NCBI GenBank assembly: GCA_001938485.1
Contig: MQRK01228140.1
Coordinates: forward strand, 1-64,000
Reading direction: 5' to 3'
Length of the DNA stretch: 64,000 nt
Source: Girardia tigrina
Lineage: Eukaryota
Position numbers and translations under genes: made by a program. The notes beneath the pieces are model-generated. The model saw only the letters and a list, made by a program, of their open reading frames with translations, had not been told where the DNA came from and made no database searches. Shown piece after piece: positions 18,714 through 53,162 of the stretch; position 1 is the stretch's first letter; the number at the start of each line of letters is the position of its first letter.

Positions 18714-18958
18714 AAATTTCTATGGTTAAAAAGAACCTTTTGAAGACTGAAAAATAATCATCCTTTCATTTTAAGTTACATTTTCTTTGAGCTCACCAAA
18801 TTCATTAGAAGTAACAACTTTCACTTTTATATGACGAAAGATTTAAAACGACTCTAATTTATTCCATTTGAAAGATCCTTCTATTAATTTCTTTTATTTA
18901 TACTGATATAAATGTATCATATTTAATTTATTTAATTTTGTATATATTATAATTGCAG

Positions 18959-19183
18959 AACACTAACTTCATTAGATGTATTAAACCAAACCTATCTATG
19001 GTGGCGAAGTCATTCGAAGGTGGTAATATACTTAGCCAACTTCAATGTTCAGGTATGACTGTTGTTCTTGATTTGATGCAACAAGGTTATCCAAGCCGAA
19101 TTAAATTTTTGGATCTTTATGAAATCTACAAGAAACTTCTTCCTTCAAATCTGGCAAACTTAGATCCAAGGTTATTTTGTAAA
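18959..19183 (+). CDS. myo6: Myosin VI exon (SH1/SH2 region, converter start)
   Basis: [11 protein letters not shown]...[24 protein letters not shown]...LDPRLFCK|gttag. Confidence 0.96.
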
Positions 19184-19864
19184 GTTAGTACTTGAATTTT
19201 TAATATTTATTTTCATTTTTTTTTATTTATACTGAATTCGTTTATTTTAGCTTATATTTAATTATTATATTTACTTGTTAGTATTCATTTAAATAAATGT
19301 AATCTTCAGTTTACTCCAATGTCCCATTCCTACAAAAGTCGGTACAAATCGAATTGGCATAAAAAGACAGTTTTTCACAAAATTAGTTGGACAAATTTTC
19401 CATGGTTGAAAGGATTAGCCTTACGTCGTGCGTTTTCATAATTCTTGAAGTTTTTTCTTCATTTTCTTCTTCTTTTCGCGATATGTTCTTTTATTAATTC
19501 TTCTAAATCTTCATTCAAGAATAAATGTTCATAAGCTTATAAAATGTGAGTCACGTTTTTAGCTGTAACATCGTCTTATGCTACTTCGCTTGATCGAGAA
19601 AGAAAGTCAGTTTAGTTGTTATATATTTTCAGTCAGTGTCAGAAAATAGTTTTGTGAATAAATGTTAAAGTGCAGTAAACCACGGGTTACATTTTTGTTA
19701 CGTTTAATTTATTCATAATAATAGTAATTATATAGTGTTTTCATTTCTATTTGTGTCTTTTGCATTTCAATTTGGGTCATAGGGGCTAAATATTTTATTT
19801 TTGCATTTCAATGAGAACCATGGGGGTTAAAATTTTTATTTTTGCATTTCAATTTGGATCTTTT

Positions 19865-22330
19865 ACAGGTTTGGCTTAAAAGTTTCTGCCGATGAATAAA
19901 GCTTTCTAAAATTAGTTCTATGCATTCGCGGTTAATGAATTTTTAACATGTACTCTTCAGTAGTTTTGCAAACAATATATGTTATTATTTTCACAATTTG
20001 AACAGAACTTTTATAATAAAATACTTAATTTGTATAAAATTAAACATTGTTTAAATCTATTACGAATGTTTTTCGTTTTTCCAGTGAGTATTTGTACTGA
20101 AAATGCAGTTTTCTAGAGAAGATTTTAGAAAAATCATTTATTAAAACTAGAAGAGAAGACTGTCAACTGCCAATAATAATAAAGAAATCAACTGCATCCT
20201 TGGTGAAGGCACAGTTGGCCTCAGAATATGCTCCGACTGGGTTGCAAAATTCAATAGTGGAAGCTTTATCTGTGAGGATGAGCCACGCAGTGGACGGCCG
20301 TCATACACTTTGGAAGAGGAGATACTAACTGTTCTCAAAGAAGATCCACGAGCTAAAACAAGAAACATTGCTGAGTGCATTGGGAATGACAAGGAGACTG
20401 TGAGAAGACGATTGATTCAAATGGGAAAGCACTATTTGTGCAACGTGTGGATATTATATGTGCTGACTGGTGCAGCGAAGACAAATAGTTACAATCTGTT
20501 AGCAGTCACTTCGACAACTCCACTGCAACAATTTTCTATATCGCTTTATTACAGCTGATGAAACCTGGATTTATTGGCAAAACAGTGATCAACAACGGCA
20601 CAAGTCTTGATGAGGCGCTGGAGATAAACCAGTGGCGGAATCAAAAACCCCCTTACCAAAACGTAATTCATGCTAAGTCTATTCTGGGACTCACAAGGAA
20701 TCATATTGATGGACTTTTTGCCACCTAATGAGAGTATCACTACCAAATATTATTGCGACCTGTTGGAAAAATGTAGCCGTTTTTGAAAAACTACGAAGAC
20801 GAATGTCTGATTGGAATCTCTAGCTCCAGCACGATAATACGAGGCCCCATACGGCTAACATCACACGAGAGAAGATTACTCAGCTTTGTCTAAACATTCT
20901 TGGACATCCGCCATACTCTCCAGACGTTTTCCCTCTGATTATTATTAGGGTGAACAAAAGTCTTTTCGTATTTTTTATTAAAAATTTAAACATAATTTTA
21001 CAACAAATAAAAAAAAATTAAGTTTCAAAGTAAAGGCCATTTGAATCTATAGCTTGAAGCCATCTATGGGCAAGTTGTGGAATCTCGCTGCGGTACCAAT
21101 CCTTGTTCTTTGAAGCGAAGAACTGGTGACACCCGTTTTCAACCTTGGACAGATTATTGAAGCTGCTACCACGAAGAAAGTGTGCCATAGAGCGGAAAAG
21201 GTGATAGTCGGATGGCGCAAGATCCGGACTATACGCTGGGTGTGGAAAAAGTTCAAAGGCGTCGAGATTTTTGATTTTTCCTTTGTTTGTTTGGCGGTGT
21301 GCGGTTTTGCATTGTCCTGTTGTAGAAGAACTCTCTTTCGATTGATTAAAGCGGGGTATTTATCGCCAAGTGCCGCATACATTCGATCAAGTTGGGCGCA
21401 GTAAAGGTCAGCGTCGATGGTACGACCATTTGGAACCAGCTCGAAGTGAATCACGCCTTCGAAATTCCACCAAACACACAAAAGAGCCTTCTTTGAGAAA
21501 CGATCTCGTTTCGGTACCGGTTTCGCCATTTGTCCGGGGTCCAACCATTGATTTTGTTGGTCTGGATTACTGAAGTAAACCCACTTTTCATCGCAAGTTA
21601 CAATTCGACGGATGAAACGGTCATCGCACGGATTTTCAAGCAATTTATTGACAAGTTTCGAAACTATTTTCGGCTCGAATTTGTGTCAATTCATGAGGCA
21701 CTTCTCGACATCGTCTATTGACCTTACCAAGAGCGTGAAGTTGTGGTAAAATGGATGTTTGAGGAATATCGAGTTCGGCCGACAATCTACGAGTACATAT
21801 TGACGGATTTGTCTCGACGGCTTCACGAAATCTACGGAGATAAGTCGGCCTGAACGTACATTGTCTCCGATGTCAATGTCGCCTTCGTTGAACCTTTTGA
21901 ACCAATTTTGTGCAGTACGATTTGAGACCACATTATCGCCTTCAACTTCGCATATCTTCTTTTTTGCTGCAGTTGCGTTTAAACCATGTTTCCAGTAATG
22001 ACGTAAAAGAACACGAATTTCAAAATTTTCCATGCTTTTTCTAAAAGACCATAAAAATTATATTAACGACTAATTAGAAGTTTTAATATATATTGTGATA
22101 GAACAGTTCAAGAGCTTTAAAAACATATAACACATGTATATGAAATATCTTTATTTGGTAATAAGAAACAATTGAACAAAAAGACGTAGAAAATACGAAA
22201 AGACTTTTGGTTTACCCTAATACCTTTGTCGATCAATGAAATCTGCCTTGCAAGGAAAGGATTACGCCAGTTCATCTGCTGTATTACACGATATTCAACA
22301 ATATTCAAAATTTTTGAAAGGTTTAATGTA
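19865..22330 (+). mobile_element. Degenerate mariner, interrupted by a second mariner
   Basis: CEDEPRSGRP, ITADETWIY, QHDNTRPH, HPPYSPD; frame resumes (YLCRSMKSALQGK) after 22222. Confidence 0.8.
20945..22220 (-). mobile_element. Mariner DD34D, full length with frameshifts
   Basis: TIRs TTAGGGTGAACAAAAGTCTTTTCGTA / TACGAAAAGACTTTTGGTTTACCCTAA, TA TSD; TCDEKW, QQDNAKPH, YSPDLAPSD. Confidence 0.93.
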
Positions 22331-23497
22331 CGGTTATGCTTAAGTGCAATAAAAGCCAATTAAGACCTCATTTATTTTTCGATAAAGCAAACTTCTCCGA
22401 TTCTAGAAACCAGAAATACCGATGAAGCTATTCAAAAAATGTATTATTATATCTTAGAATTCGATATATTGAAAGGAGAGCATCCAATGCCAAACTTCAT
22501 TTTTATTGACGAAGCTGGATTTTGCGTATCTATGCGGCGAAATAAAGGTTGGATAGAACGTAGAAGACCTGCAAATGTAGTAGTTCCGGCAATTAGATCA
22601 CGAAACTTTAGTGTATGTGCTGCTTTGTCGTGTCAAGGGTTGATTAAGTATGACGTCATAGATCGAGCATTCAGACCAACGGATTTCAGAGAGTTTTCGG
22701 AAAGTTTAATTGATTTACTGAAAACGGAACATGAGAATGAGAAGTTTATTTTTATCGCTGACAATGCTTCCATCCACAAAGTGAGGAACATTAGAGAATT
22801 GGTGGAAGCAGCGCGTTTTATTTTACTGTTATTGTCGCCGTATAGCCTCTTTTTAAATCCAATTGAAAATAAATTTTCAAAGTGGAAAGGGCACGTAAAT
22901 TCGCTGGCATGTAATAATGAGGAAGATTTGTTTAGTGGTATTAGGAATAGGTTTGAAATTGTAACCGGCAGAGATTGTGAGAACTATTTGTTTTACATTA
23001 ATGAATCCAGTCTAAGATAGGAAACTGTGGAATAATATATATGTAAATGTAATATATGTTATGTAATATGTAAAATATACGTTTATTTTTTGTTTGTTTA
23101 ATTTATTTTTATTTTTTTGCTTTTAAGAAATATTAAAAGTTTAAATGGAAATGCAAAAATAAAAATTTTAACCCTCATGGCCCAAATTGAAATGCAAAAA
23201 TAAAAAATATTTAGCCCTATGGTCCAAATTGAAATGCAAAAGACCCAAATAGAAATGAAAACCCTGTAAACACATATTTTTATTTGTGCATTTATATTTT
23301 ATTTCTAAACGTATTTGTTTTGAGATACTAATATAATTTAATATTATATATTTTATAAATAACAATAAAATTTTAAAATTATTTACCAAATATTATCAAG
23401 TACAACTGTTAGGTTCGATTTCAAAAATAGAATTCATAACATTAAAAATTTATTTCTATAACACTTGAATATTTTAAAACAAATTTCCGAGGAGCTT

Positions 23498-24665
23498 CGA
23501 GGGGAAATTGATTCTTATAACCGACCATTTTGCCAGTTTTTAAATTTAAAAAAAATAAATTAAATAAATATTTACCATTTTAAATAAATTAAATAAATAA
23601 ATAAAATCATAAAATAAAATTTAAATAATAAAATAAAGTAAGATTAAACCAGTAAATAAATTAAAATAAATAATTAAATAAATTAAATTAAACAAAATTA
23701 ATAATCTTTAAAATTAAATAATTTAAAAACCATCACTTTCATATGGTTTCGTTATGGTGTAAAGGTGAGTTGATTGGTGATAAAAATTCAAATTGTCTCT
23801 CAACAATATTCACGAAAACTAATACCGATGACATAATCGTTTTGAAATTAATTCAGTCGATTAAAACAAATTTTCTCGAACAAATTTCAAAGGATCCTTA
23901 TCAAAATCGGTCACTTGAATAATTGGGTAAAATCAATATGATTAAGGAAAATCGAGAATGTGTGTTGTGTGTAAAGAAAATGTTAATTGTGATTGCGTGT
24001 GTGCTTGAATGTAATTGAATGTAATTAATATGTGTGAATGTGATTGGAGTAATTGCATGTTTGTGTGTGTTTGTTTTTATAACAAGAATTTTAACCACAA
24101 TTATTTATGTACAAAAAAATAAATGGTCAATTGTTGTGAAATTTAATCGTAAAAAATATGTTCAATTAAAAAAGTGTCAAATAAATCAATTCCGTGTTCA
24201 ATTAGTAAAATGGTAAAAGTAGAAAAATGTCGATCGATTTGCTGATGTTATCAAGTGGAACAGTAAAAAAATCGAATTTGTGTTAAAGATAATAAAAAGT
24301 TTTTGCTCTCTCTTGAGTTTTTTGAATTAGTCAAGTGAGTCGATATCATTTGTATACTTTTGAAATGAGTTTGATTTACAATTCTTTGACAAATAATACT
24401 CATCCGATAAATGAAATTGTGTCAAATTATCCTCCTAATTCAATTAAGCCTTTTGGAGTGCATTTGCTGAATATTGCTCATTTAGAAACTCTGTTCTCTG
24501 GTTCTAAATTTAATGTGGAGGCACGGTTTCCGTCCAGAGCTATATTTTATTATTTTGCACAAACCAGTCATAATAAAAGTACTAAATATAATATCGATAT
24601 CATTTACTTAAATTTAATATCACTTGCTATTTTTTAATTTTGGAAATAGACACAACATTTTGACA
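23498..24665 (+). mobile_element. Diverged copy of the TGGA...TCCA cargo-element family, carrying an ORF-X homologue (24335-24637)
   Basis: 5' end GAGGGGAAATTG...CCGACCATTTTGCCAGTTT resembles the family terminus; A-rich then TG-rich tracts; ORF shares KDNK and FGV motifs with 53859; possible TSD AGCTT/AGTTT. Confidence 0.5.
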
Positions 24666-25131: not shown

Positions 25132-26097
25132 TATATNNNNNNNNNNNNNNNNNNNNNNNNNNNNNNNNNNNNNNNNNNNNNNNNNNNNNNNNNNNNNNNN
25201 NNNNNNNNNNNNTATATATATATATATATAGATAGATAACAAATTTCATATTCTTTATTAGAAATAGAAATATAATTTCGTACTTTCTTTTTATTCCTTT
25301 TTTCGATTTATCCTAGGAGGGGGTTTGTATCAAGAATGTTCGAGAACCGGAGAAGAAAAAAATAAAGAACTAATGTTTGTCCGCGAGCGCTTGTTAAAGA
25401 TTTCTCAACAGTACGAAGTTCTTCAAGAATCTCAAGAACATTTGTTACGCTTCTGACAAAAAAAGAGTCAATTTTCTAAACTAGGTATTTTCAATGATAA
25501 ACTTGAGTCCGTTGATAAATATATCGCTGAAGAAGTACTCTGATTTTGAAACCTCGTTATAGCAGAGAGAGAAAATATATAAAGGTGGTTATTGTATCGT
25601 ATTGTCAAATTTGAATCATATTGTTGAATCGTATTGTTGGAACAGAATCGTCAATTAAAGTTCAACAATTCAACAGATAATGAAAGCATCGAAAAAAATA
25701 AGAACAAAGCCGTAATGGATACTGTGTTATAAGTTGATAAAAGTTCAGATAAAGTAAAAATGAAAAATAAAGAAATGGAAATGCAAAAGGATGTTGTTAG
25801 TCATAAAGATCATTTAAAATACCAAAAGATTCCGATCGTAACGCCACAGCGGTGAGATTGAGTTTGTTATCATTCTCCCTTGAAACAGAGACCCCTATCA
25901 ACGCTGTAGTCAAGCTATTGCCCTAACTCGGTTAACAACTATTGTTATTGGTTTAATTATGTTGTAAATATTAACATCCATATTAATATTTGGTTTTTTA
26001 GTTATTATTATACTTATATATCAACAAAAATTTTTTATAACAGTAAAAATAAAACAAAAAGATCTTATTTTAATCTATTATTTGTTAAATGTTTCAG

Positions 26098-26305
26098 TTA
26101 CTTTTCAAAGTTGTTGGTTTAAAAGATTCTGACTTCAAATTTGGCATGACCAAAGTCTTTTTTCGGCCTGGTAAAATGGCGGAATTTGATCAGTTAATTC
26201 GATCGGATCCAGAAAATATTAAGATTTTGGTTGCGAAAGTTAAAAAGTGGTTAATTAGGTATCGTTGGCGGAAGGCACAATATGGAGTTTTGGAAGTCAT
26301 AAAAT
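26098..26305 (+). CDS. myo6: Myosin VI exon (converter and insert-2 reverse gear)
   Basis: DFKFGMTKVFFRPGKMAEFDQLIRSDPENI...KKWLIRYRWRKAQYGVLEVIK; ag/gt boundaries. Confidence 0.96.
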
Positions 26306-27840
26306 GTAAGTTAAATATTGAACCATAATAATTATTTTATTTCAAAGGCTTTAAAAGCGTACCGCTGCCATGTTTTATAAATTAAGCTTAGTGTATGATA
26401 GTTGATCATTTCTCCCATATTTGTTTTACATTCGAGGTTTATATGCAAAAAATATTAAAAATATTTTAATGCAACTGTGATTTTCTTTGTACTTAATATA
26501 TGACCCACACTATCATGCATTTTTAATCATAATATATCTATTAAACTATAAATATTATGATCTAGCAAATGAAGTAAATTTCCTCTTAGTTTTAGATTTG
26601 ATAAACGTGCAAAATATCTTTAAAAAGTTTATATTTTTTGATTTTATTGGTACACCAGCTATGTTAATTTTTTTTGCTATCATTTTGGCTATCCATGTCT
26701 TTACAGTGTCTTTAAATTGACTACCATCGTTAATAAATGATTTGGTGACACTTAATACCGTGACAGTTAATCACCGACACTTAATACCTGCGACAGTTAA
26801 TACCGCGAATCGTATAATTTCTTGATAATATCATCTAGTTTTTCCTCAAAGTGTTTTGGCTGTCGGTACGGTTTTACCAATATTCGTTCTCCTTGCGTTT
26901 CAATTTTATGCGTAGTTAGTGTGGTCTTCCCTATATCATATTTGTCCACCATAAATATCGTTTTATATTCTATTAGTAATTTCATTAATGGTTCATCTAT
27001 CTTTATCACGAACTTCTACGAGGCTAAATATTTCTAAACGAACTATTATAGAAAATCTTTGAAGGATTATGCAAAATATTCAAAAATACTGGAAGGGCTA
27101 TGTGGAAAAAATAGAGATAAAAAATTGACATGGACAAAGGAATGTGACGAAGCATTTCAGACATTAAAAGATAAAATGACAAAAACATCGATCCTAGCAT
27201 ATCCAGATTTCGAAAAGGAGTTTATACTGGATACAGACGCCAGTTTTGATACAATCGGGGCAGTACTGGCACAGAAGGATGCATACGGAAGGGAAAGAGT
27301 AATTGCATATGGATCACACAAGATGAACAAACACGAACTAGGATACTGTATTACAAGAAAAGAATTATTGGCAATCTATTACTTTACCTAACACTTCAAA
27401 CATTTCTTATACGGAAAGAAGTTTCTACTTAGAACGGACCATAAGGCCATCACATTCATGATGACAACAAAGAACCGAATAACTCCACAATTCCAAACTT
27501 GGATAAACTTCCTTAGTGGACTAGACATGAGGATGGAATACCGCAAGGGCAAAAAACACACTGATTCAGATGCAATGTCGAGAAATACATGTGAACTATG
27601 TGTACAATGTCAGACAATGCACGATGACACTGAAAAAGGAAAAGTTAAAACTAGAATGCTAGCATTAACAGAAGATTCAGAAGAGTTCATTTGGCAAACG
27701 AATGATGAAGAAATAGAACAGATTAAAGAAAATATTAAAATGGGAAAGACAGAAGAATGGCTACTGAAAAACAATATCGTGACGACAATAGATAACAAAT
27801 ATTGGATCCTTATGAAGAAGAGAACAGACTTTATAGAAGA

Positions 27841-29091
27841 TGGACAGGAAGCCGTGTCTCCACGATATTTTGGGAAGAGAAGAAATGTTTATCGATTTAT
27901 CATAAGCACTCAGAGATCTCTCTTTTTGAATTTCATTGGGAATGTTTTTCACTATGATTCCCCGAACGTCCTTCAATTCACAATTGACCCGAGTCAAAGC
28001 CACCGGTGTTCGGGTACTGTATTTTTATTTTGAAAATTTAGAAGTATTTTATAATTATTCAACATTTCGTGCTCTAATTTAGCATCAACTTTAACTTTAC
28101 GAATTGATAAAGTTCCTGGGAAAAAGATGTCAATCAAGAGACAATAGGCCGATTCCGATTCCAGATCCTCGATCCGGTGGTATTGGAAATTCAGAGTTTT
28201 ATTGATCCAATTAAAAACGTCTTGTCGACTAATCACTTCATTATTCGTATTATTCTTGGGAACATTCACACCGTGATACATACTCAATTATCAATCAGAA
28301 AATTCGTCTTAAAACTACAGAAATCGAAAAAGATCCTTTGATTTTGTTGGTGGATTTACAGATTAATTTATTTAAATTAAATCGAACGCAACTTTTTTTT
28401 ATTTGTTTTCAAATATTTGTTCTTTCGCCAAAAAAAACACTTAAATTGACATTTTCAAATTGACATTTTTAAAAAATATTGAAATCTTTTAATTGTGATT
28501 ACAATTCACATTTAACATGCATTCACACACATACATTAAAAAAAACATACACTCAACCAATTATTTTCATTTACATTCACATATCATACAATCACATTCA
28601 TACAAACAAACATACATGCACACTTACATGCAGAGAAAAAATTTCCATTTATTGCAATTAAAAATAAAAATAAAATGAATGAATGAGGCTCACAATCTGA
28701 CCGAAATTAAAAACATTCGATTACGAAGGCTGTATGGAAATAATTCGAATGATTCTACAAGCCTATTAAAGTTTATTATCGTTTTAGTATGGCTTACTAA
28801 ACGCAACCATTGTTTTTAAGTTTTTAACCGGTTCTATTCTTCGACACATCATTGTCGTATGTTTGTTTATTTTATCCAGAGTTTTTACGTTACATTATTT
28901 TTAATTCATTTATTATTAATTTNNNNNNNNNNNNNNNNNNNNNNNNNNNNNNNNNNNNNNNNNNNNNNNNNNATTTATTTAATTTCTTTTTAATTACTTT
29001 ATTTATTTAATTTAATTATTTTAATTATATATTTTATTTATATACTGAAACTGGCAAAAATGTTCGGTCAAATCAGCAATTCTCCGCTCCA
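27841..29091 (-). mobile_element. TGGA...TCCA element copy 1 (EB1 cargo), 5-bp TSD GAAGA
   Basis: Removing the element and one GAAGA restores Gypsy pol FIEDIHKMLCHAG; termini shared with 40638-41899. Confidence 0.88.
27994..28281 (-). CDS. Intronless, C-truncated EB1/MAPRE-like calponin-homology domain ORF inside the mobile element
   Basis: VNV...SRQDVFNWINKTL...IEDLESESAYCLLIDIFFPGTLSIRKVKVDAKLEHEMLNNYKIL aligns with EB1 SRHDMLAWINESL...[44 protein letters not shown]. Confidence 0.85.
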   Translation of the reverse strand: MYHGVNVPKNNTNNEVISRQDVFNWINKTLNFQYHRIEDLESESAYCLLIDIFFPGTLSIRKVKVDAKLEHEMLNNYKILLNFQNKNTVPEHRWL

Positions 29092-29701
29092 GAAGATATA
29101 CATAAAATGTTATGTCATGCAGGAAGTAAGAAAGTATACAATTACATAAAAGATGATTTCGATATGCATGAAAATAAGACAACAGAAAAAGAAAATCGTA
29201 CAAATTTGCGAAAACTGCCAGAAAAGGAAGACGCTGACGGCAAAAACGAAAGAAAAACACATTAAACAATCTGCCGACGAACCATTTCAAAAAATTTACA
29301 TGTACTTTTGCGGACCATTCAGAAGGACTATGAATGGATACCAATACATTTTAGCAATAATCGATCAATTTAGTAGGTACATTAACTTGACCGCAGTGGC
29401 ACACCAGGACGAGAAGACTACACGAAAGGTACTATTAGAGAAATGGATTTGGAAATTCGGACCACCAAAAGAGATACACGTTGATAGAGGAAAAACTTTC
29501 GAATCAGCACTCTTTAAAGGAACGACGAAGAAATTTAAGACGGAGATAGTCTATTCAAGCCCTTATCACCACAACACTAACGGGATCATAGAAAGACAAT
29601 TCAGAACAATAAGAGACACCATAAATATACGATTAAAGGATGAAATGCATAGAGATTGGGTAGAAATGTTGGCAGAAATAGAATTCATGTTAAACGGTAC
29701 A

Positions 29702-30092
29702 ATGGTGTTTAACACCATCAACAAACTATATCGGATACCAGATACAGTTTTTGAAATGTCCAAAATTAATTGAATTGACTGATCCGGTACATATTAGAAA
29801 GAGCAAATTCAACTTCTATGTAAAGGATATAAGTGATCGTGATTATGATATTATAAATGTAAACCTACAAGAAGTAGGAACAAGATCAGATGGGAAGCTG
29901 AGTCAGTTTAGAGAACAATATTTTCGATCATATGATGGATTAAAATTTAGAGATTTTAGGGGTCATGACATACCAATAATGGGCTTGTCTAATTATTCGA
30001 GAGCATTTATCAAAATATGCTTACAAGGAAGAAAAGAAAAAGATGGTAAAAATTATCCAATATGGAAATTATCAGAAATTCGTTGTATTTAA
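29702..30092 (+). pseudogene. Orphan ~130-aa ORF with a single frameshift
   Basis: ATG 29702 MVFNTINKLYRIPDTV joins ORF 29751-30092 if one T is removed from GTTTTTG. Confidence 0.45.
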
Positions 30093-40216: not shown

Positions 40217-42838
40217 TTAGGTTGGTCGAAAAAATAATGGCGGTTTTGGGACACAAACTTCAAAGACGTGCAAATTCACAGAAACAAAAGTTTATTAATC
40301 AAAGTATGAACCGTTGGCATCAATACATTTTTACCAACGAGAAACAAGTTGTTTTATTCTATCAGCATAAAATGCATCGGTTCTCGAAGCGACGAATTCT
40401 TGGAAGACATTTTGAGCATCATTTTGGTTTTTGAAAATTTTTTCACGTAGGAAGTTATACAAATGCCTGAAAAAGTAGACGTCCGTTTGCGAGAGGTCTG
40501 GTGAATATGGTGGATGAAGCAGGGTTTCATAGCCCAACTCATTAAGCTTTTGAAATATGAGGTCTAGCGTTATCATGAAGAAGGATGGGACTTTTTCGAT
40601 TGACCAATCCCGGACAAAGGGTTTTCAATTTTTTTGCTGGACAGGAATCCGTGTCTCCATGTTTTGGAAAGAGAAGAATTGTCTTTCAATTTATCATTTA
40701 AAGCACTCAGAGATTCTCCTCGTAGAATTACATCGTTAATTCTTTTCACCCTAATTCATTGAATATCATTCAAATTAGAATTAATTTGATTAAAGCTTAT
40801 TGGTGTTCGGGTGTAAACAGAAAATTAGTTCAAACTCGAATAGTCGAAGAACATTTTCCTTGGAGACTTTCTCGAAAACAGTATTAACACCAAAACCTAT
40901 CTGTTCGTGAAAACGACACACGTTAACGAGAGTATTCAGATTTGTTGCATCTAATTTGTCAAAATAATTCAGAAAAATGTACACCGCCGACCAATTATTG
41001 GCTGTTATGATTTTATTTATTTTTTTAAGAAGTCACTGGAATCTCTACACGATACGTTTATATTATCTTTCTCTTGAAATTCCAATTTGTATAAGATCTC
41101 ATTATATAATTTTTTAGTTTTTTTTAAATTCATTTAAACACTGACAAATTCTCTTTTTTTTAAATTGATTTAATTGTTTTAAAATTTTTTATTCCAACTT
41201 TCATTCAAAATTTAACTCACTTTTTTTAACCGAAATTGTTTTATTGTGACAAAATTTACATTTTTTAAAGACACACATGCACACCCAATTCACCAATCAT
41301 CACAAACATGCACACGACATTCCTGCACACACGTAATCATATTGGCAGAGTGAGTTAACCAAAAAAAGGAGGCTCACCATTTAATTTAAAATTTCCTCGA
41401 ATTAATCTCTCACATAATTACACATTAGTCAAACCATCGATTGATTTTGAAAATTATTTACGCATATATGTCGTTAATAATTCTTTTGAGGCGCTTGAAT
41501 TTTTTAATTCACTCGAATCAATAGATCGATGAGTAACAAATCGGAATCGGTGTCTATTTTCTGTCGACAGAAACCGTTAAATGATTAAAATATCTAGCCG
41601 TGTATCATTAAGAAATTGATGAATCTATTCGCGGATTCAAGGAAATAAATTCTGAACAAGATGTGATTGTTGACAATTATAGAAATATGAAAGAAAACAG
41701 CGATCAAATAAATCAATTCACTCATTTCTTTTGTTGTTTCTTTTTTAATATATTGCTTTTTTTAATTTAATTTATTTTATTTATTTAAACTTTTTTAATT
41801 ATTTTCTTTTATATAATTTATTAATTTAATTATATATTTTATTTATGAATTCCTGAAACTGGCAAAAATGTTCGGTCAAATCAGCAATTCTCCGCTCCAT
41901 ATGCATTTCATCAATTTCATGACAATACCTCTCCTGGATTCAAGAAACTAGTGGATGATTCCAGCATCACACCACCAAACTGTCACCATAACCTTACGGG
42001 GTGTTAGTTTCGGTTTTGGAAAGTGTTTCGGTACTTCATCTTTGTCCAACCACTGTGAAGATCGACGTCGGTTATCATAAAGGATCCATTTCTCATCACA
42101 GGTAACAATACGATAAAGAAATGGATCGTTTTTATTGCGAAGATGATTGACAGAACAAATTTCATAGCGTCGGTTCTTTTGATTTTCATTCAAATCATGT
42201 GGAACCCATTTATCAAGTTTCTTGATTTTTCCAAGTTGTTTTCACCAAGTTGTTTTCACTTAGTTGTTTTCACCAAGTTGTTTAAACTTATATACATATC
42301 AACGTAGATAAACAAAGTATAAAGCTCAAAAACCACCATTATTTTTCAATGATCCAGGACTGTTGAATGACTAATGCCCAACCCATCTGCAAGTTCTCTG
42401 ATTGTTGTACGGGGATCTGTTTCCACCATTGTCCTCAAATTGTCGTTCTTCACAGCAACTGGACGACCACGACCTTTTTCATCTGCAAGGTTTTCATCTC
42501 CATCAGAAAATTTTCGGAACCATCGTTGCACTGTGCGCTCAGAAGCTGTTCCCTAGCCAAACGCTTTATTGATATTGCGAGCCATTTCTGCTGCTTCCGA
42601 CCCAGTTTAAATTCGTACAAGAAAATTGCTCGAATTTTAATTTTTTCCATTATTAATTTAGCACCGTAAATATTCTAAAAAATAACAGCAATATGTTAAT
42701 AATGGCTATAGGAATATACAGCTAGGCATAAGATTTCAAATAATATCTAACACTAATGCATTTAAACTTATATACATATCAACGTAGATAAACAAAGTAT
42801 AAAGCTCAAAAACCACCATTATTTTTCGACCAACCTAA
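40217..42838 (-). mobile_element. Mariner DD34D, interrupted by a cargo element
   Basis: TIRs TTAGGTTGGTCGAAAAAATAATGG / CCATTATTTTTCGACCAACCTAA with TA; TCDEKW, LLHDNARPH, HPPYSPDLSQTD. Confidence 0.93.
40638..41899 (-). mobile_element. TGGA...TCCA element copy 2 (ORF-X cargo), TSD TTTGC/TATGC
   Basis: Same ~45-bp and ~165-bp termini as copy 1; splits mariner EIDEMH/KKLKTL; degenerate ORF at about 40790-41132. Confidence 0.87.
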
Positions 42839-45863: not shown

Positions 45864-46509
45864 CTAGAGTTTGAAAGCGAGTGATTGTGATAGAATGTTT
45901 TGTATACAATTTGAGAGCATTTTGTGAACTTTCTTAATTCTTTTCTTCTGAAACTCTAAATAGACAATCGTGTTTGGCGATAATATTACTGGAACACTGA
46001 TGAGATACGCCATTTGTCCATAGGTAATTTTGAGAAAGATATAATTTTTGAGGAGCATTTCAGCGATTAATAAATGCTTCTCTAATTTAACTAGCTCAAG
46101 AGGAGTTTTATTGTCATTATTGTTTGATTCGAGAATACAATGTCTTTTGAGCAACAATTTAACTATTTCTATATATCCATTTTTACAAGCAATATGAATT
46201 GGTGTATCACCATTATTGTTTTGTATGTCTACATTACATTTCTTATCAAGAAGTAATTTAACTATTTCTACATTTTCATTTTCACAAGCATTATAAATTG
46301 GTGCCTCACCATAATTGTTTTGTACATCTACTCTACAATTCTTATCAAGAAGTTTACTTATTTCTTTACTTATATTCCAACAAGCAAAATAAATTGGTGT
46401 GTCAGCATTTTTGTCTGTTACATCTACATTACAATTCTTATCGAGAAGTAATTTAACTACATCTAAATTATTTTCTTGACAAGCGATAGAAATTGGTGCA
46501 TCGCCATAT
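45864..46509 (-). pseudogene. Start-less ankyrin-repeat paralogue of the ANK-RING gene (4 repeats + cap, different C-terminus, no RING)
   Basis: Open frame YGDAPISIACQENN...TPIYFACWN...APIYNACEN...TPIHIACKNG...LEFQK, preceded by in-frame TGA. Confidence 0.85.
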
Positions 46510-46519
46510 CATTGCAAAG

Positions 46520-49305
46520 TAAATTATTGCAATGTAATCATAATAAATAATATTCAGCTAACGGATAAATTATAGAACGACTTTTGAAAATAGGATGATA
46601 TATTTTGTAATAAAATCTAAAATTAAAATGAATCTGTAAAAGAAATTATTTTGATATATTTAAAAAATATAAAAAATTAATTTAAAACAATGTTTTAATA
46701 ATATTTAATGAAAATATATATTATTTATATTAGTAAAAACAAAAATTGTAAAAATTAAAATAAACTTTTTAAAAATATTTGTTTTATACATTTAAAATGA
46801 ATAAATAAAAATTTTCATTTTTAAAATAATTATTCACAAAATATGTTTTATGTAAAAATATTATTGTATCTTTTTTGAATTTTAAGTTTAAAAAAGTATC
46901 TATCATTTAATAATAAAATAAACATAAATTAATGTATTTAATATAAAAATTATGATATCTATTATTTTTTAATTTAATAATAACTATGCGTTATATTTTT
47001 AGAATAAAAAAGTACAAAAATAGAGATTAAAATTTATGATAATATTTGAAATTTATTATTTTTTGCTATAATCATATAAATGTTATGCAGTATATTTTTT
47101 TAATTAAATTAATGAATACTTTATTGTCTCTTCATTGAGAACATTTAAGTAGTGTAAAAACAAAGAAATAAGTTTTTTTATTTGTATGACAATATTCTAA
47201 TTTAAATTTAAAATATATTTTCGTAATATAATTGAAATAAATTATTATTTAAAAAAAATACTTTTTAAAAATAATAAAAATGAGATTTAAAATAATTTGT
47301 ATTATTTTAATTGATTATAAATAAAAATGCTTTAATGATTTAGAGTATGAAATATTATTTACGATATATAAATTAGAAATCGAATTAAAATTATTCTTAA
47401 TTTTGAGTTTTAAAATATTTAATCATGATTTAAAAAATAGTATTGACAATTATGACCAACGAACCATATTAAATATTTTGAAAAGTGTATTATAAATAAA
47501 TGATTATGATTTAATGGCTTTAATATATTTTGGTAAATGTTTTTGTAAATTGCAATGTTTTAAGTGATATTAATTGAAACTTCATTTTTCCATTTTTTTC
47601 ATTTTACTATTTTTTTCTTCCTAAAAAATGAATATTGATCAAATAAATGAAAGATTAAAACATTTTATATTTTATAAAATAATAGAAATGAGTATCATAA
47701 AAAAGCAGCTGCATTTCAAAATGAAGGGATCCCATTTAAAAATTTTGTCGATCAAATTGAGAAACCTATAATTAATGTAGCTGAAAATAAAAAAGTGATT
47801 ACTATAGAAGGTTATTTAACTAAAAAAAGCACTTGAAATAGAAGGTGATAAAAAAATAATGGCAATTGAACGACTTAAAGATGAAACAGACATACAAAAT
47901 AATACTAATAATATTGTTGGGTTAATCTGATGTTTTAAATATTTATAAAAAACCTCAATTGATTTTATAAAAAATATATTTTTATGTACAGTTTAATTAC
48001 AAGAAAAATAATGTTGGGGTATTAGAGTGATCGAACTTTATTAAAATGAAAATTAAAAAGTCGATAAGTATTTTACAATTATTTATTAAAAATTAAATCG
48101 ATTTAAAAATTACTGGAAGAGAGTAACGTGTGAGGCCTCATTAATAAGATCCATGGATCAAAAAATTAATATTCAAGCTTCACATTCAATTTTTCTGTTA
48201 AACATTTTCAAATAGTACATTTATTACATAATCATCATTCTCATATACAAGCTACAAAACTAATGTTAATTTAGTCTGAAGATGGCGGGTAATCAACCGA
48301 TATTAATAAAAATAAATTTTTATTTATTTTCATAATACACTTTTCAAAATATTTAATATGGTTCGTTGGTCATAATTGTCAATACTATTTTTTAAATCAT
48401 GATTAAATTTTTTAAAACTCAAAATTAAGAATAATTTTAATTCGATTTCTAATTTATTTATCGTAAATAATATTTTATACTCTAAATCATTAAAGCATTT
48501 TAATTTATAATCAATTAAAATAATACAAATTATTTTAAATCTCATTTTTATTATTTTAAAAAATATCTTTTTTTAAATAATAATTTATTTCAATTATATT
48601 ACGAAAATATATTTTAAATTTAAATTAGAATATTGCCATACAAATAAAAAAAACTTATTTCATTGTTTTAACACTACTTAAATGTTCTCAATGAAGAGAC
48701 AATAAAATATTCATTAATTTAATTAAAAAATATACTGCATAACATTTATATGATTATAGCAAAAAATAATAAATTTCAAATATTATCATAAATTTTAATC
48801 TCTATTTTTGTACTTTTTTATTCTAAAAATATAACGCATAGTTATTATTAAATTAAAAAATAATAGATATCATAATTTTTATATTAAATACATTAATTTA
48901 TGTTTATTTTATTATTAAATGATAGATACTTTTTTAAACTTAAAATTCAAAAAAGATACAATAATATTTTTACATAAAACATATTTTGTGAATAATTATT
49001 TTAAAAATGAAAATTTTTATTTATTCATTTTAAATGTATAAAACAAATATTTTTAAAAAGTTTATTTTAATTTTTACAATTTTTGTTTTTACTAATATAA
49101 ATAATATATATTTTCATTAAATATTATTAAAACATTGTTTTAAATTTATTTTTTATATTTTTTAAATATATAAAAATAATTTCTTTCACAGATTCATTTT
49201 ATTTTTAGATTTTATTACAAAATATATCATCCTATTTTCAAAAGTCGTTCTATAATTTATCCGGTAGCTGAATATAATATATTACGATTACATTGCAATA
49301 ATTTA
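46520..49305. repeat. ~975-bp inverted repeat arms (46520-47493 / 48332-49305) around an ~840-bp spacer
   Basis: Near-identical reverse-complement match, e.g. TTATAGAACGACTTTTGAAAATAGGATGATA versus TATCATCCTATTTTCAAAAGTCGTTCTATAA. Confidence 0.92.
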
Positions 49306-49742
49306 AATCGATTTGAGTAGTCATTATCCTTTATATCATATAAAATAACAGAATATTTCTATTAATATTTTCCAATAATCAATAGTATCTCGTTTGAGAA
49401 ATAAGAGAATGCAAAGAACTGATTTAAGATCAAGATCTGTTTTCATTTTAATAATATATTTAAATTATTTTTTAAAATTAATTGCGAAAAAAACATTTTT
49501 ACCTTTATTATCATTACATATTAATTTATTACATCGATGATTAAAGTTTTCTAAAAAATAAATCTTGTAAAATATAGAATTGTACAAGTGTGATAAAAAA
49601 CTATATTATTGAAAATATTTTTTAAGGGTACCATTTAAAAATAATTTAGGTTTTAAAAGCCAATCAAATTTGATCGAAATATAATTTTATTATTTAATAG
49701 TCTCTTGAAAACAATATTATTCACAAATTATAACTATTCACA

Positions 49743-52700
49743 ATGTTTGTAAAGTTTTTAAAATCAGAGAAGACGAAATGTAATTATTCATCAATACATT
49801 TTGCTTGTACGAAAGGACAAAAGGAAATGGTAAAATTACTTCTTGATAAGAATTGTAATGTCGACGAACAAAATGTACTAGGTAAGGCACCAATTCATAT
49901 TGCTTGTCAAAAAAATAATGTAGAAATAATTAAATTACTTCTCGATAAGAATTGTAATGTAGACTTAACAGACAAAAATGATAACACACCAATTCATATC
50001 GCTTGCCAAAATGAAAATGTAGAAATAATTAAATTACTTCTCGATAAGAATTGTAATGTAGACTTAACAGACAAAAATGATAACACACCAATTCATATCG
50101 CTTGCCAAAATGAAAATGTAGAAATAATTAAATTACTTCTCGCTAAGAATTGTAATGTAGATGTAACAGACAAAAATGATAACACACCAATTCATATTGC
50201 TTGTTGGAAGGGAAAAAAAGAAATAATTAAACTTCTTTTTGATAAGAGTTGTAGTGTAGACGTACAAAACAAATATGGCGATGCACCAATTCGTATAGCT
50301 TGTGAAAATGAAAATGTAGAAATAGTTAAATTACTTCTCGATAAGAATTGTAATGTAGATGTAACAGACAAAAATGATAACACACCAATTCATATCGCTT
50401 GTCGAAATGAAAATGTAGAAATAATTAAATTACTTCTCGATAAGAATTGTAATGTTGATGTAACAGACAAAAATGCTGAGACACCAATTCATTTTGCATG
50501 CTGGAATGGAAATAAAGAAATAATTAAACTTCTTCTTGATAAGAGTTGTAAAGTAGACGTACAAAACAAAAATGGCGATGCACCAATTCATATCGCTTTT
50601 CAAAAAAATAATTTAGATGTAGTTAAATTACTTCTCGATAAGAATTGTAATGTAGATGTAACAGACAAAAATACTGACACACCAATTCATATCGCTTGTC
50701 GAAATAAAAATGTAGAAATAGTTAAATTACTTCTCGATAAGAATTGTAATGTGGATGTAACAGACAAAAATACTGACACACCAATTCATTTTGCTTGTTG
50801 GAATGGAAATAAAGAAATAATTAAACTTCTTCTTGATAAGAGTTGTAAGGTAGACGTACAAAACAAATATGGCGATGCACCAATTCATTTCGCTTGTCAA
50901 AAAAATAATTTAGATGTAGTTAAATTACTTCTCGGAAAGAATTGTAATGTAGATGTAACAGACAAAAATGCTGACACACCAATTAATTTTGCATGTTGGA
51001 ATGGAAGTAAAGAAATAATTAAACTTCTTCTTGATAAGAATTGTAGAGTACATGTACAAAACAATTATGGCGAGGCGCCAATTCATATAGCTTGTGAAAA
51101 TGAAAATGTAGAAATAGTTAAATTACTTCTCGATAAGAATTGTAATGTAGATGTAACAGACAAAAATGATAACACACCAATTCATATTGCTTGTCGAAAT
51201 AAAAATGTAGAAATAGTTAAATTACTTCTCGATAAGAATTGTAATGTAGATGTAAAAAGCAGATATAGTGACACACCAATTCATATCGCTTGTCGAAATG
51301 AAAATGTAGAAATAATTAAATTACTTCTCGCTAAGAATTGTAATGTAGATGTAACAGACAAAAATGATAACACACCAATTCATATTGCTTGTCGAAATAA
51401 AAATGTAGAAATAGTTAAATTACTTCTCGATAAGAATTGTAATGTAGATGTAAAAAGCAGATATAGTGACACACCAATTCATATCGCTTGTCGAAATGAA
51501 AATGTAGAAATAATTAAATTACTTCTCGATAAGAATTGTAATGTTGATGTAACAGACAAAGATGCTGAGACACCAATTCATTTTGCATGCTGGAATGGAA
51601 ATAAAGAAATAATTAAACTTCTTCTTGATAAGAGTTGTAAAGTAGACGTACAAAACAAAGATGGCGATGCACCAATTCATATCGCTTTTCAAAAAAATAA
51701 TTTAGATGTAGTTAAATTACTTCTCGATAAGAATTGTAATGTAGATGTAACAGACAAAAATGCTGACACACCAAATCATTTTGCTTGTTGGAATGGAAAT
51801 AAAGAAATAATTAAAGTTCTTCTTGATAAGAGTTGTAGTGTAGACGTACAAAACAAAGATGGCGATGCACCAATTCATATCGCTTGTCAAAAAAATAATT
51901 TAGATGTAGTTAAATTGCTTCTAGATAAGAATTGTAATGTAGATGTAACAGACAAAAATACTAATACACCAATTCATATCGCTTGCCAAAATGAAAATGT
52001 AGAAATACTTAAATTACTTCTCAATAAGAATTGTAATGTAGATGTAACAGACAAAAATGATAACACACCAATTTTTATGGCTTGTTGGAAGGGAAATAAA
52101 GAAATAATTGAACTTCTTCTTGATAAGAGTTGTAAAGTAGACGTACGAAACAAAAATGGCGATGCACCAATTCATATCGCTTTTCAAAAAAATAATTTAG
52201 ATGTAGTTAAATTACTTCTCGATAAAAATTGTAATGTAGATGTAACAGACAAAAATGATAACACACCAATTCATATTGCTTGTCGAAATGAAAATTTAGA
52301 GATAGTTAAATTACTTCTCGATAAGAATTGTAATGTAGATGTAAAAAGCAGATATAGTGACACACCAATTCATATCGCTTGTCGAAATGAAAATGTAGAA
52401 ATAGTTAAATTACTTCTTGATAAGAAATGTAATGTAGACATACAAAACAATAATGGTGATACACCAATTCATATTGCTTGTAAAAATGGATATATAGAAA
52501 TAGTTAAATTGTTGCTCAAAAGACATTGTATTCTCGAATCAAACAATAATGACATTAAAACTCCTCTTGAGCTAGTTAAATTAGAGAAGCATTTATTAAT
52601 CGCTGAAATTCTCCTCAAAAAGAATATCTTTCTCAAAATTACCAATTCACAAATGGCATATCTCACCAATGTTCCACTAAGATTATCACCAAACACGATT

Positions 52701-53162
52701 GTCTATTTAGAGTTTCAGAAGCTTTCTTCTTTGGATAAATCACAACTGTGTAGAAATATTCAAGATTTGGCTTTGAAATGGTACATGGATAACAAAAATA
52801 GTTTTCTAAATCTTTATGTTATGCATTTCAAAAAGCAAAAAAATATTGTACTCTTGAAACAGTATAATAAATTATTTGCATTAATGGGTCCGATGGAACG
52901 AAATTGTTTGGAGGAGCCTTACCAAAGCATCAAAAAACACAGATATCGTTTTGCTAAGCGACATCATTTTCTGACAAAAAATAAGAAAATAAGTATCAAA
53001 ATATCAGAAAAGATGTGTACTGTTTGCTATACTGAATCAGTCAAAATAAGAATAGATTGTGGTCACATATTTTGTGACAGTTGTTCAAGAAGTCTCAATA
53101 AATGTCCTGTGTGCAATTATTCGTTACAGAGTAAAAACAATTTTATTGAGATTAATATATAA
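49743..53162 (+). CDS. Intronless ankyrin-repeat (28 x 33 aa) + C-terminal C3HC4 RING protein, putative E3 ubiquitin ligase
   Basis: 1139-aa ORF; TPIHIAC...EIVKLLLDKNCNVD repeats; CTVC...CGHIFCDSC...CPVC RING. Confidence 0.93.
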   Translation: MFVKFLKSEKTKCNYSSIHFACTKGQKEMVKLLLDKNCNVDEQNVLGKAPIHIACQKNNVEIIKLLLDKNCNVDLTDKNDNTPIHIACQNENVEIIKLLLDKNCNVDLTDKNDNTPIHIACQNENVEIIKLLLAKNCNVDVTDKNDNTPIHIACWKGKKEIIKLLFDKSCSVDVQNKYGDAPIRIACENENVEIVKLLLDKNCNVDVTDKNDNTPIHIACRNENVEIIKLLLDKNCNVDVTDKNAETPIHFACWNGNKEIIKLLLDKSCKVDVQNKNGDAPIHIAFQKNNLDVVKLLLDKNCNVDVTDKNTDTPIHIACRNKNVEIVKLLLDKNCNVDVTDKNTDTPIHFACWNGNKEIIKLLLDKSCKVDVQNKYGDAPIHFACQKNNLDVVKLLLGKNCNVDVTDKNADTPINFACWNGSKEIIKLLLDKNCRVHVQNNYGEAPIHIACENENVEIVKLLLDKNCNVDVTDKNDNTPIHIACRNKNVEIVKLLLDKNCNVDVKSRYSDTPIHIACRNENVEIIKLLLAKNCNVDVTDKNDNTPIHIACRNKNVEIVKLLLDKNCNVDVKSRYSDTPIHIACRNENVEIIKLLLDKNCNVDVTDKDAETPIHFACWNGNKEIIKLLLDKSCKVDVQNKDGDAPIHIAFQKNNLDVVKLLLDKNCNVDVTDKNADTPNHFACWNGNKEIIKVLLDKSCSVDVQNKDGDAPIHIACQKNNLDVVKLLLDKNCNVDVTDKNTNTPIHIACQNENVEILKLLLNKNCNVDVTDKNDNTPIFMACWKGNKEIIELLLDKSCKVDVRNKNGDAPIHIAFQKNNLDVVKLLLDKNCNVDVTDKNDNTPIHIACRNENLEIVKLLLDKNCNVDVKSRYSDTPIHIACRNENVEIVKLLLDKKCNVDIQNNNGDTPIHIACKNGYIEIVKLLLKRHCILESNNNDIKTPLELVKLEKHLLIAEILLKKNIFLKITNSQMAYLTNVPLRLSPNTIVYLEFQKLSSLDKSQLCRNIQDLALKWYMDNKNSFLNLYVMHFKKQKNIVLLKQYNKLFALMGPMERNCLEEPYQSIKKHRYRFAKRHHFLTKNKKISIKISEKMCTVCYTESVKIRIDCGHIFCDSCSRSLNKCPVCNYSLQSKNNFIEINI

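What the first reader, a model, noticed from the sequence alone, without database searches (positions are those of the whole stretch)
27994..28281. Captured intronless EB1 (microtubule plus-end tracker) CH domain inside a mobile element
Seen: a stop-free 95-aa ORF clearly similar to the EB1 N-terminus, truncated after NYKIL and fused to the element's 3' terminal block. It is substantially diverged from the canonical motif (LCSGAAYC is LESESAYC) yet still open. Inference: retro-captured host gene possibly kept by selection in the element. A CH-only EB1 lacking the dimerisation/EBH region could modulate microtubule or spindle behaviour.
Basis: partly seen in the sequence, partly recalled or inferred. 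Interest (0 to 1): 0.8.

Follow-up and report, generated by a model that had tools for sequence, protein, structure and literature searches.

The report
Retrotransposon ends that swallow host mRNAs
The EB1 piece is a spliced copy of the front of a host gene sitting inside the end repeat (LTR) of a jumping gene whose hundreds of end repeats carry pieces of at least eight different host genes, mostly in frame with the element's own protein, which likely means the element borrows host start codons rather than making a microtubule regulator.

Summary
The ORF is real (minus strand, EB1 residues 4-81, E 6e-19) and retro-captured: two host exons, 96% identical and intron-flanked elsewhere in the genome, are joined seamlessly. 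But it is not a kept CH-only EB1. It lies inside a 1,251-bp solo LTR (27841-29091, TG..CA, 5-bp target duplication) of a BEL/Pao retrotransposon. The stop at residue 96 is a private frameshift; in other copies the frame runs through the LTR end and primer site into HSP90-fragment, ubiquitin, Gag and Pol. The LTR end has 757 exact copies; the same slot holds 14-3-3, LSm, USP8, longin/VAMP7, ankyrin, Usp or kinase pieces, stacked in layers (here EB1 | unknown | VAMP7 | USP8), and 72 of 89 sampled ends are stop-free in that one frame (5 and 4 in the others). EB1 copies drift neutrally, half keep only 42 codons, and the CH domain is incomplete. Best reading: reverse transcriptase jumps onto host mRNAs near the LTR end, and only in-frame captures persist because they likely supply the polyprotein's start codon. 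Capture by template switch is known; serial capture inside the LTR as a swappable translation leader was not found in print.

The parts
27841..29091 (-). Solo LTR (1,251 bp incl. a 50-N gap) of a BEL/Pao retrotransposon family, TG..CA ends
   Evidence: Shared ends with 15+ other copies; sister LTRs flanked by PPT or PBS-like site; same LTR start follows an RT/RNaseH/IN ORF with Pfam Peptidase_A17 family
27836..27840 (.). 5-bp target site duplication GAAGA, left copy
29092..29096 (.). 5-bp target site duplication GAAGA, right copy
   Evidence: contigs of three runs go from the left flank straight into the right flank (empty site), table 7
28282..28440 (-). EB1-subfamily-specific leader upstream of the ATG, inferred to be the captured host 5' UTR (boundary approximate)
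   Evidence: Not shared with LTRs carrying other cargo; host exon 1 not found; for the Usp cargo the like region matches the host gene's 5' UTR
28036..28281 (-). Captured EB1 coding piece, codons 1-82; 28154-28116 = host exon 2, 28115-28036 = 5' part of host exon 3, intron absent
27986..28035 (-). Tail of an older, unidentified cargo (layer X); holds this copy's private frameshift near 28015
   Evidence: table 4
27917..27985 (-). Tail of an older longin/VAMP7-type (synaptobrevin) cargo
   Evidence: Longin E 3e-21, Synaptobrevin E 0.003 in L146; loose ends at 27985
27881..27916 (-). Tail of an older USP8-type cargo
   Evidence: (USP8_dimer E 1e-15 in L058); loose ends at 27917
27841..27880 (-). 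Constant terminal ~40-bp U5 block, reads PKISWRHGFLS in the family frame and continues through the primer site in 5' LTRs
   Evidence: 757 exact matches of its 23-nt core, control 0
27038..27840 (+). Left part of the older, decayed Gypsy-type pol (RNase H) into which the LTR inserted
   Evidence: Pfam RT_RNaseH_2 E 7.5e-29
29097..29773 (+). Right part of the same older pol (integrase)
   Evidence: Pfam rve E 4e-13

Best explanation
The ORF is the spliced front of a host EB1 mRNA built into the LTR of a BEL/Pao retrotransposon, where it likely serves as a swappable 5' leader and start codon for the element's single gag-pol frame, not as a microtubule protein. Shown: the LTR's last ~40 bp are constant, the few hundred bases before them come from many host genes in nested layers, and the host frames run through the LTR end and primer site into HSP90-fragment, ubiquitin, Gag, protease and, in some copies, RT and integrase. 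Inferred mechanism: reverse transcriptase, primed at the PBS, copies part of U5, jumps at a short similarity onto a co-packaged host mRNA, runs to near its 5' end and makes the normal first strand transfer, so the host 5' end lands in both LTRs on top of older cargo. Because the captured ATG would be the first one the ribosome meets, only in-frame captures would make Gag-Pol and spread. More speculative: the ubiquitin in front of Gag would let host deubiquitinases cut the junk leader off, which would explain why its sequence is free. The window copy is a dead solo LTR left by LTR-LTR recombination, with a private frameshift.
For: LTR nature: TG..CA ends and exact 5-bp TSD here and in 27 of 40 held LTRs that are not PPT/PBS-flanked; full element L105 with TSD, PBS, PPT and LTRs 98.5-99.3% alike; Peptidase_A17 E 2e-45, RVT_1, DUF1759, DUF1758; one frame HSP90-Ub-Gag-PR-RT in L272 and PR-RT-IN followed by PPT and this LTR start in L269. 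RNA origin: host exon 2 (39 nt) and exon 3 joined with no intron, 5 differences in 119 nt; junction microsimilarity 6 of 8 nt. Many cargos: Pfam USP8_dimer, 14-3-3, LSM, Ank, Longin, Usp, weak Pkinase. Frame: 17 of 17 exact LTR+PBS hits have an ATG-bearing open frame from the LTR through the PBS (two pairs look like duplicates, three have only 24 codons after an ATG); 72 of 89 sampled ends stop-free over the last 30 codons against 5 and 4 in the other frames; 2.7 stops per 100 codons against 11.6 and 8.4 (63 ends); Usp class 19 of 20 junctions in frame; the EB1 short form is an in-frame 279-nt loss. Stops in cargo are 22 private and 0 shared (p=0.03) while shared amino-acid changes are free outside 14-3-3 (p=0.82); ubiquitin/gag/protease show purifying selection (p=4e-5). 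5' ends: Usp cargo matches host exon 1 from ~84 nt before the ATG and no further; EB1, 14-3-3, LSM, USP8, Usp pieces start at profile positions 1-4. Ubiquitin domain in frame with Gag, GG kept in 30 of 30.
Against: No translation or start-site data: internal in-frame methionines exist after the PBS, so Gag-Pol could start there. 5 of 90 ends (two unidentified cargo classes) read one base off the family frame, and no PBS-flanked copy of them was found; two further single copies are out of frame. Host exon 1 of EB1 was not found, so its 5' UTR origin is inferred. The 14-3-3 cargo shows an excess of shared synonymous changes (p=0.02), which may mean some protein constraint or repeated re-capture. 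Ankyrin, longin and a weak Sec23/24 piece are not shown to be mRNA 5' ends. The ubiquitin ends LRLCGG in 28 of 30 copies instead of the recalled canonical LRLRGG, so cleavage may be poor. Runs are only guessed to be RNA. Shared-variant counts can be inflated by duplicate assembly of one copy and by recurrent mutation.
Confidence: 0.72

Rival explanations
1. The EB1 fragment is kept as a CH-only protein that modulates microtubules or spindles.
For: ORF open for 82 EB1 codons in 4 of 7 long copies; crude N/S ratio 0.52; contigs holding the piece in four public runs.
Against: Ratio not different from neutral (p=0.13; p=0.62 against other private changes); 2 stops and 3 frameshifts among 7 long copies; 8 copies keep ~42 codons; conserved Gly is Glu in all 6 long copies tested; CH lacks the part encoded by host exon 4; EB1 is 1 of 90 sampled cargos; the free 95-aa form exists only in this copy.
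Confidence: 0.04
2. Same capture, but the frame is kept only because an out-of-frame upstream ATG or early stop would trigger RNA decay or block scanning; Gag-Pol really starts at a methionine after the primer site and the leader is never part of the working protein.
For: In-frame methionines follow the PBS; leader sequence is unconstrained; ubiquitin end is altered.
Against: An in-frame upstream ATG in a host 5' UTR context would still be used by scanning ribosomes (general knowledge), so this differs from the best reading mainly in which start dominates.
Confidence: 0.1
3. Cargo is positively chosen: host 5' ends disguise the element's RNA from piRNA silencing or give better translation, or some fragments (14-3-3, USP8, LSm) act as decoys of host proteostasis and RNA decay.
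For: A few cargos dominate (14-3-3 21, LSm 12 of 90); 14-3-3 shows shared synonymous excess; planarian Burro elements carry apoptosis and ubiquitin domains (PMC6431247 passages).
Against: Abundant housekeeping mRNAs are also the likeliest to be co-packaged; no constraint in the other five cargos pooled (p=0.82); cargos are overwritten repeatedly.
Confidence: 0.1
4. The pieces entered by another route: read-through transcripts from an LTR lying upstream of the host gene, or DNA-level conversion of LTRs by host cDNA, rather than a jump during strong-stop synthesis.
For: An LTR of this family lies in the same orientation ~19 kb upstream of host EB1 exon 3 in one contig (L022); one element has different cargo in its two LTRs (L026/L027).
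Against: That upstream LTR carries another cargo; no LTR match within 1 kb upstream of the host Usp exon 1; the cargo includes host 5' UTR rather than a splice into exon 2.
Confidence: 0.06

Closest known systems
BEL/Pao LTR retrotransposons (PMC3118150, passages)
   Same: Gag (DUF1759), protease (DUF1758), RT, Peptidase_A17, integrase in Gypsy order; LTRs 0.6-1.4 kb; element of ordinary size
   Different: ORF begins inside the 5' LTR on captured host sequence; HSP90 fragment and ubiquitin before Gag; CCCH fingers; no such features in the passages seen
LTR-mediated retroposition by template switch (Tan et al., PMC5131818, passages and section 10; maize Bs1 as cited there)
   Same: Partial spliced mRNA, microsimilarity at the junction, multi-gene chimeras, further rounds of transposition, one BEL example in mosquito
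   Different: There the retrocopies are internal and flanked by LTRs, at one to a few copies; here they are inside the LTR, serially overwritten, in hundreds of copies, in autonomous as well as non-autonomous members, and in frame with gag-pol
Burro giant Gypsy elements of planarians (PMC6431247, passages)
   Same: Host-like domains (ubiquitin-like, ankyrin) built into an LTR element's polyprotein
   Different: Gypsy, over 30 kb, domains fixed in the internal ORF after Gag; here BEL/Pao, ~6 kb for the complete non-autonomous copy, variable cargo in the LTR
Pestivirus (BVDV) ubiquitin insertions (PMC5381556, four passages)
   Same: A captured ubiquitin inside a polyprotein acts as a cut site for cellular ubiquitin C-terminal hydrolases
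   Different: RNA virus, RNA recombination; cleavage is only an analogy here and the ubiquitin end is altered
EB1/EB3 CH domain (PDB 1pa7, 3co1)
   Same: Residues 4-81 align at E 6e-19
   Different: About 45 C-terminal residues of the domain, linker and EBH absent

Membership tests
BEL/Pao LTR retrotransposon | Direct terminal repeats TG..CA with short target duplication | tested here: met
BEL/Pao LTR retrotransposon | PBS after 5' LTR and PPT before 3' LTR | tested here: met
   the priming tRNA was not identified
BEL/Pao LTR retrotransposon | Pao-type domains (DUF1759, DUF1758, RT, Peptidase_A17, integrase) in order PR-RT-RH-IN | tested here: met
   L269 links the pol ORF to the PPT and this LTR start
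BEL/Pao LTR retrotransposon | RT phylogeny and superfamily (BEL, Pao, Tas, Suzu, Sinbad, Flow, Dan) | not tested
   no tree built
LTR-mediated retrocopy (template switch) | Intron loss relative to a parent gene | tested here: met
   exon 2/3 junction; exon 1/2 junction untestable, exon 1 not found
LTR-mediated retrocopy (template switch) | Microsimilarity at the switch point | tested here: inconclusive
   6 of 8 nt at one junction in AT-rich DNA, no chance model
LTR-mediated retrocopy (template switch) | Retrocopy internal, flanked by two LTRs | tested here: not met
   cargo lies within the LTR itself
Functional EB1 CH domain | Complete ~125-residue CH fold | tested here: not met
   82 or 42 residues; missing part is in host exon 4
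Functional EB1 CH domain | Purifying selection on the protein | tested here: not met
   (low power, star-like young family, 97-99% identity)
Functional EB1 CH domain | Microtubule plus-end binding | not testable with these tools
   needs bench assay
Helitron / Pack-type DNA capture | Genomic fragment with introns, TIRs or CTRR end | tested here: not met
   intron absent, LTR with PBS/PPT
Ubiquitin-fusion processing signal | Complete ubiquitin ending LRLRGG (motif recalled) in frame before the released protein | tested here: inconclusive
   full domain, in frame, GG in 30 of 30, but LCGG in 28 of 30

The most novel reading that the evidence does not exclude
A retrotransposon with a modular, self-renewing 5' end: during reverse transcription it keeps swapping in the 5' UTR and start codon of host housekeeping mRNAs, a built-in ubiquitin lets host enzymes cut the borrowed leader off Gag-Pol, and the swap gives it host-grade translation and a changing, host-like face towards piRNA silencing, a DNA-level counterpart of cap-snatching recorded as layered fossils in hundreds of LTRs.
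Probability: 0.3. Interest if true: 0.9.

Novelty: new variant of a known kind. Interest (0 to 1): 0.72.

Why it matters
It turns rare gene capture by LTR elements into a repeated, countable process: each LTR is a stack of dated capture events with a built-in selection readout (reading frame), so one can measure which host mRNAs enter particles, where RT jumps, and what a leader must do. If the captured ATG drives Gag-Pol, the element depends on host 5' ends, a way of life not described in the papers I could search. Practically, hundreds of LTRs with 86-96% identical pieces of 14-3-3, LSm, USP8, EB1 and others will mislead gene annotation, RNA-seq mapping and RNAi, and may feed small RNAs against the parent genes. 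The EB1-as-spindle-modulator idea itself is not supported.

Tried and rejected
Host EB1 exon 1: DNA search of 28150-28400 gave 17 of 17 candidates, all LTR copies; not in fetched host contigs, which have N gaps. Protein search for longer relatives of the ORF found none at E<=1e-15 among 59 candidates. Search with ubiquitin+Gag N-terminus was swamped by polyubiquitins. Host 14-3-3 pattern found nothing; the kinase search returned only LTR copies among 40 scored of 87. No PBS-flanked copy of the off-frame end variant. A SUMO label that I first gave to the commonest unidentified cargo got no Pfam support and was dropped. Public runs: 10 rows hold part of the stretch, shares 0.12-0.29, RNA only guessed for the three so labelled of the four laid; contigs of three runs stop at 28371-28434, near the inferred start of the captured leader, a weak hint only; no host-type loose end at 28036 in the (cut) table. 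Expression is therefore not shown. DNA-transposon or Helitron capture, Burro membership and a simple exon copy were rejected. Earlier scan notes: none. No structure prediction was run: the domain is visibly truncated.

Full report
Observation. The minus strand of 28281-27994 reads 95 residues without a stop. It aligns to EB3/EB1 residues 4-81 at E 6.5e-19 and to Pfam CH positions 3-80 of 109. The plus-strand neighbours are RNase H (27038-) and integrase (29150-) of a decayed Gypsy-type pol, in an intron region of a myosin VI-like gene.

The unit is an LTR. A protein search of the own genome gave 19 matches of 33 candidates. The copies share sharp ends at window 27841 and 29091: TG..CA, with GAAGA on both sides here and other 5-mers in other copies. 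Of 52 held LTRs with both ends, 4 are PPT-flanked, 8 PBS-flanked, 27 have an exact 5-bp duplication and 13 do not (several are one mismatch off). L105 is a complete ~6-kb copy with TSD, PBS, PPT and LTRs 98.5-99.3% alike, without RT. Relatives about 90% identical in the protease region carry RT and integrase: L272 has one frame HSP90 fragment-ubiquitin-Gag-CCCH-protease-RT (with N gaps), L269 has protease-RT-integrase followed by the PPT and this LTR's start; Pfam gives Peptidase_A17 E 2e-45, RVT_1, DUF1759, DUF1758. So the family is BEL/Pao, with autonomous and deleted members, and the window holds a solo LTR. The kind of animal was not tested.

The EB1 piece came through RNA. Two contigs hold an intron-bearing EB1 paralogue: exon 2 (39 nt, AG/GT), exon 3 (107 nt), a 50-nt intron, and exon 4, which matches EB residues ~91-125. 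In the LTR, exons 2 and 3 are joined exactly; the 6 long copies tested differ from the host at 5 of 119 positions, 3 of them amino-acid changes including the Gly of SGSAYC. Host similarity stops after codon 82, where host and older LTR share 6 of 8 bases. Host exon 1 was not found.

The 95-aa length is an accident. L004 is open for 141 codons to the LTR end; the window copy has a private one-base frameshift near 28015 (table 4). Eight copies carry a short form that drops 279 nt in frame; one of them, a 5' LTR, is open for 306 codons from the EB1 ATG through the primer site into HSP90 and ubiquitin.

EB1 is one cargo of many. The 23-nt core of the LTR end has 757 exact matches, control 0. I examined 90 of the first 100 listed (30 returned as loci, 60 fetched; 10 left out, mainly for too little upstream DNA). 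Classes: 14-3-3 21, an unidentified class 17, LSm 12, ankyrin-bearing 10, USP8 4, weak Sec23/24-like 4, longin 1, kinase 1, Usp 1, EB1 1, two unidentified classes 5, two singletons, 11 unassigned. Pfam supports USP8_dimer, 14-3-3, LSM, Ank, Longin, Usp and weakly Pkinase; gene names such as LSm3, VAMP7 and RSK are my recall on top of these. Cargos are nested: LSm on a 14-3-3 tail, ankyrin and longin on the unidentified class, and here EB1 on X on longin/VAMP7 on USP8 (boundaries 28036, 27985, 27916, 27880, matched by loose ends). One run holds EB1 joined to a VAMP7-type layer directly (X1). For the Usp cargo the parent exon 1 was found: the match begins ~84 nt before the ATG and does not extend into the promoter.

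The frame is what is kept. All 17 exact LTR+PBS hits have an ATG-bearing open frame through WRHGFLS-KFWW. 72 of 89 ends are stop-free for the last 30 codons in that frame, 5 and 4 in the others; 63 ends with 300 clean bases have 2.7 stops per 100 codons against 11.6 and 8.4. These copies are related, so the fairer count is by origin: eight Pfam- or PDB-supported host genes in frame, 1.5e-4 if frames were random, with the caution that classes were first seen in that frame. Against: five ends of two unidentified classes read one base off, and two singletons are off; the apparent Usp exception proved private (19 of 20 in frame). Counting variants against each column's commonest codon: cargo stops 22 private, 0 shared by three or more copies (p=0.03); nonsynonymous/synonymous 249/86 private against 41/25 shared (p=0.05), the signal coming from 14-3-3 (p=0.02; others p=0.82); ubiquitin, Gag start and protease 166/65 against 34/41 (p=4e-5). 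Indel counts were too few to test (p=0.29). EB1: 15/7 plus 2 stops, neutral-like.

Mechanism. Shown: position in the LTR, splicing, sense orientation, nesting, frame. Inferred: RT primed at the PBS copies the U5 end first (established LTR biology), jumps to a co-packaged mRNA and completes the first strand transfer from near its cap, which explains why cargo is in the LTR, why the terminal 40 bp never change, why older tails remain downstream and why most pieces are 5' ends. Inferred: the captured ATG starts Gag-Pol, so out-of-frame captures die. Speculative: ubiquitin (GG in 30 of 30, LCGG in 28 of 30) releases Gag, as captured ubiquitin does in pestiviruses (PMC5381556, four passages). My odds: LTR retro-capture 0.95, frame kept for translation 0.8, strong-stop route 0.6, ubiquitin cut 0.4.

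Literature. Tan et al. (PMC5131818; passages and section 10) describe template-switch capture with internal retrocopies flanked by LTRs. The Burro review (PMC6431247; passages), the BEL/Pao survey (PMC3118150; passages) and the plant extra-ORF review (PMC7264820; part 1 of 3) show nothing like cargo inside the LTR in what I saw. Ten full-text searches listed no description of this family or of serial in-frame capture in LTRs; subscription journals, Repbase and supplements were not seen and may hold one.

Verdict. New variant of a known kind; interest 0.72.

Noticed in passing
window 40638-41899 (-): A second LTR of the same family (1,262 bp) with another unidentified cargo on a synaptobrevin-like tail, next to a mariner remnant; flanks show no exact 5-bp duplication.
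   Followed up: partly
window ~23490-24537 (+): An older, decayed LTR-like stretch ending in the same terminal block, with a 103-aa frame that has no Pfam match.
   Followed up: partly
window 18953-19186 and 26092-26310 (+): Exons of a myosin VI-like gene (Pfam Myosin_head, MYO6_lever); the EB1 LTR lies antisense in its intron region.
   Followed up: partly
window 45864-53162: A single-exon 1,142-aa ankyrin-repeat plus RING ORF (27 x 99-bp repeats) facing away from a partial inverted duplicate, with 93-98% complementary arms between them.
   Followed up: no
window 20151-23020: Nested mariner/Tc1 remnants on both strands (Pfam Transposase_1, DDE_3).
   Followed up: no
L026:2180-2455 and L027:1-952 (G000:C202803): One element whose 5' LTR and 3' LTR carry different cargos (unidentified class versus EB1): recombinant or assembly chimera.
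   Followed up: no
L055-L057: Three loci with the EB1 C-terminal family, so the host has several EB paralogues; their link to the divergent parent was not made.
   Followed up: partly
L105, L107, L278, L279: Deleted members replace RT and integrase by a coiled-coil-like tail yet keep Gag and protease open for hundreds of codons.
   Followed up: no
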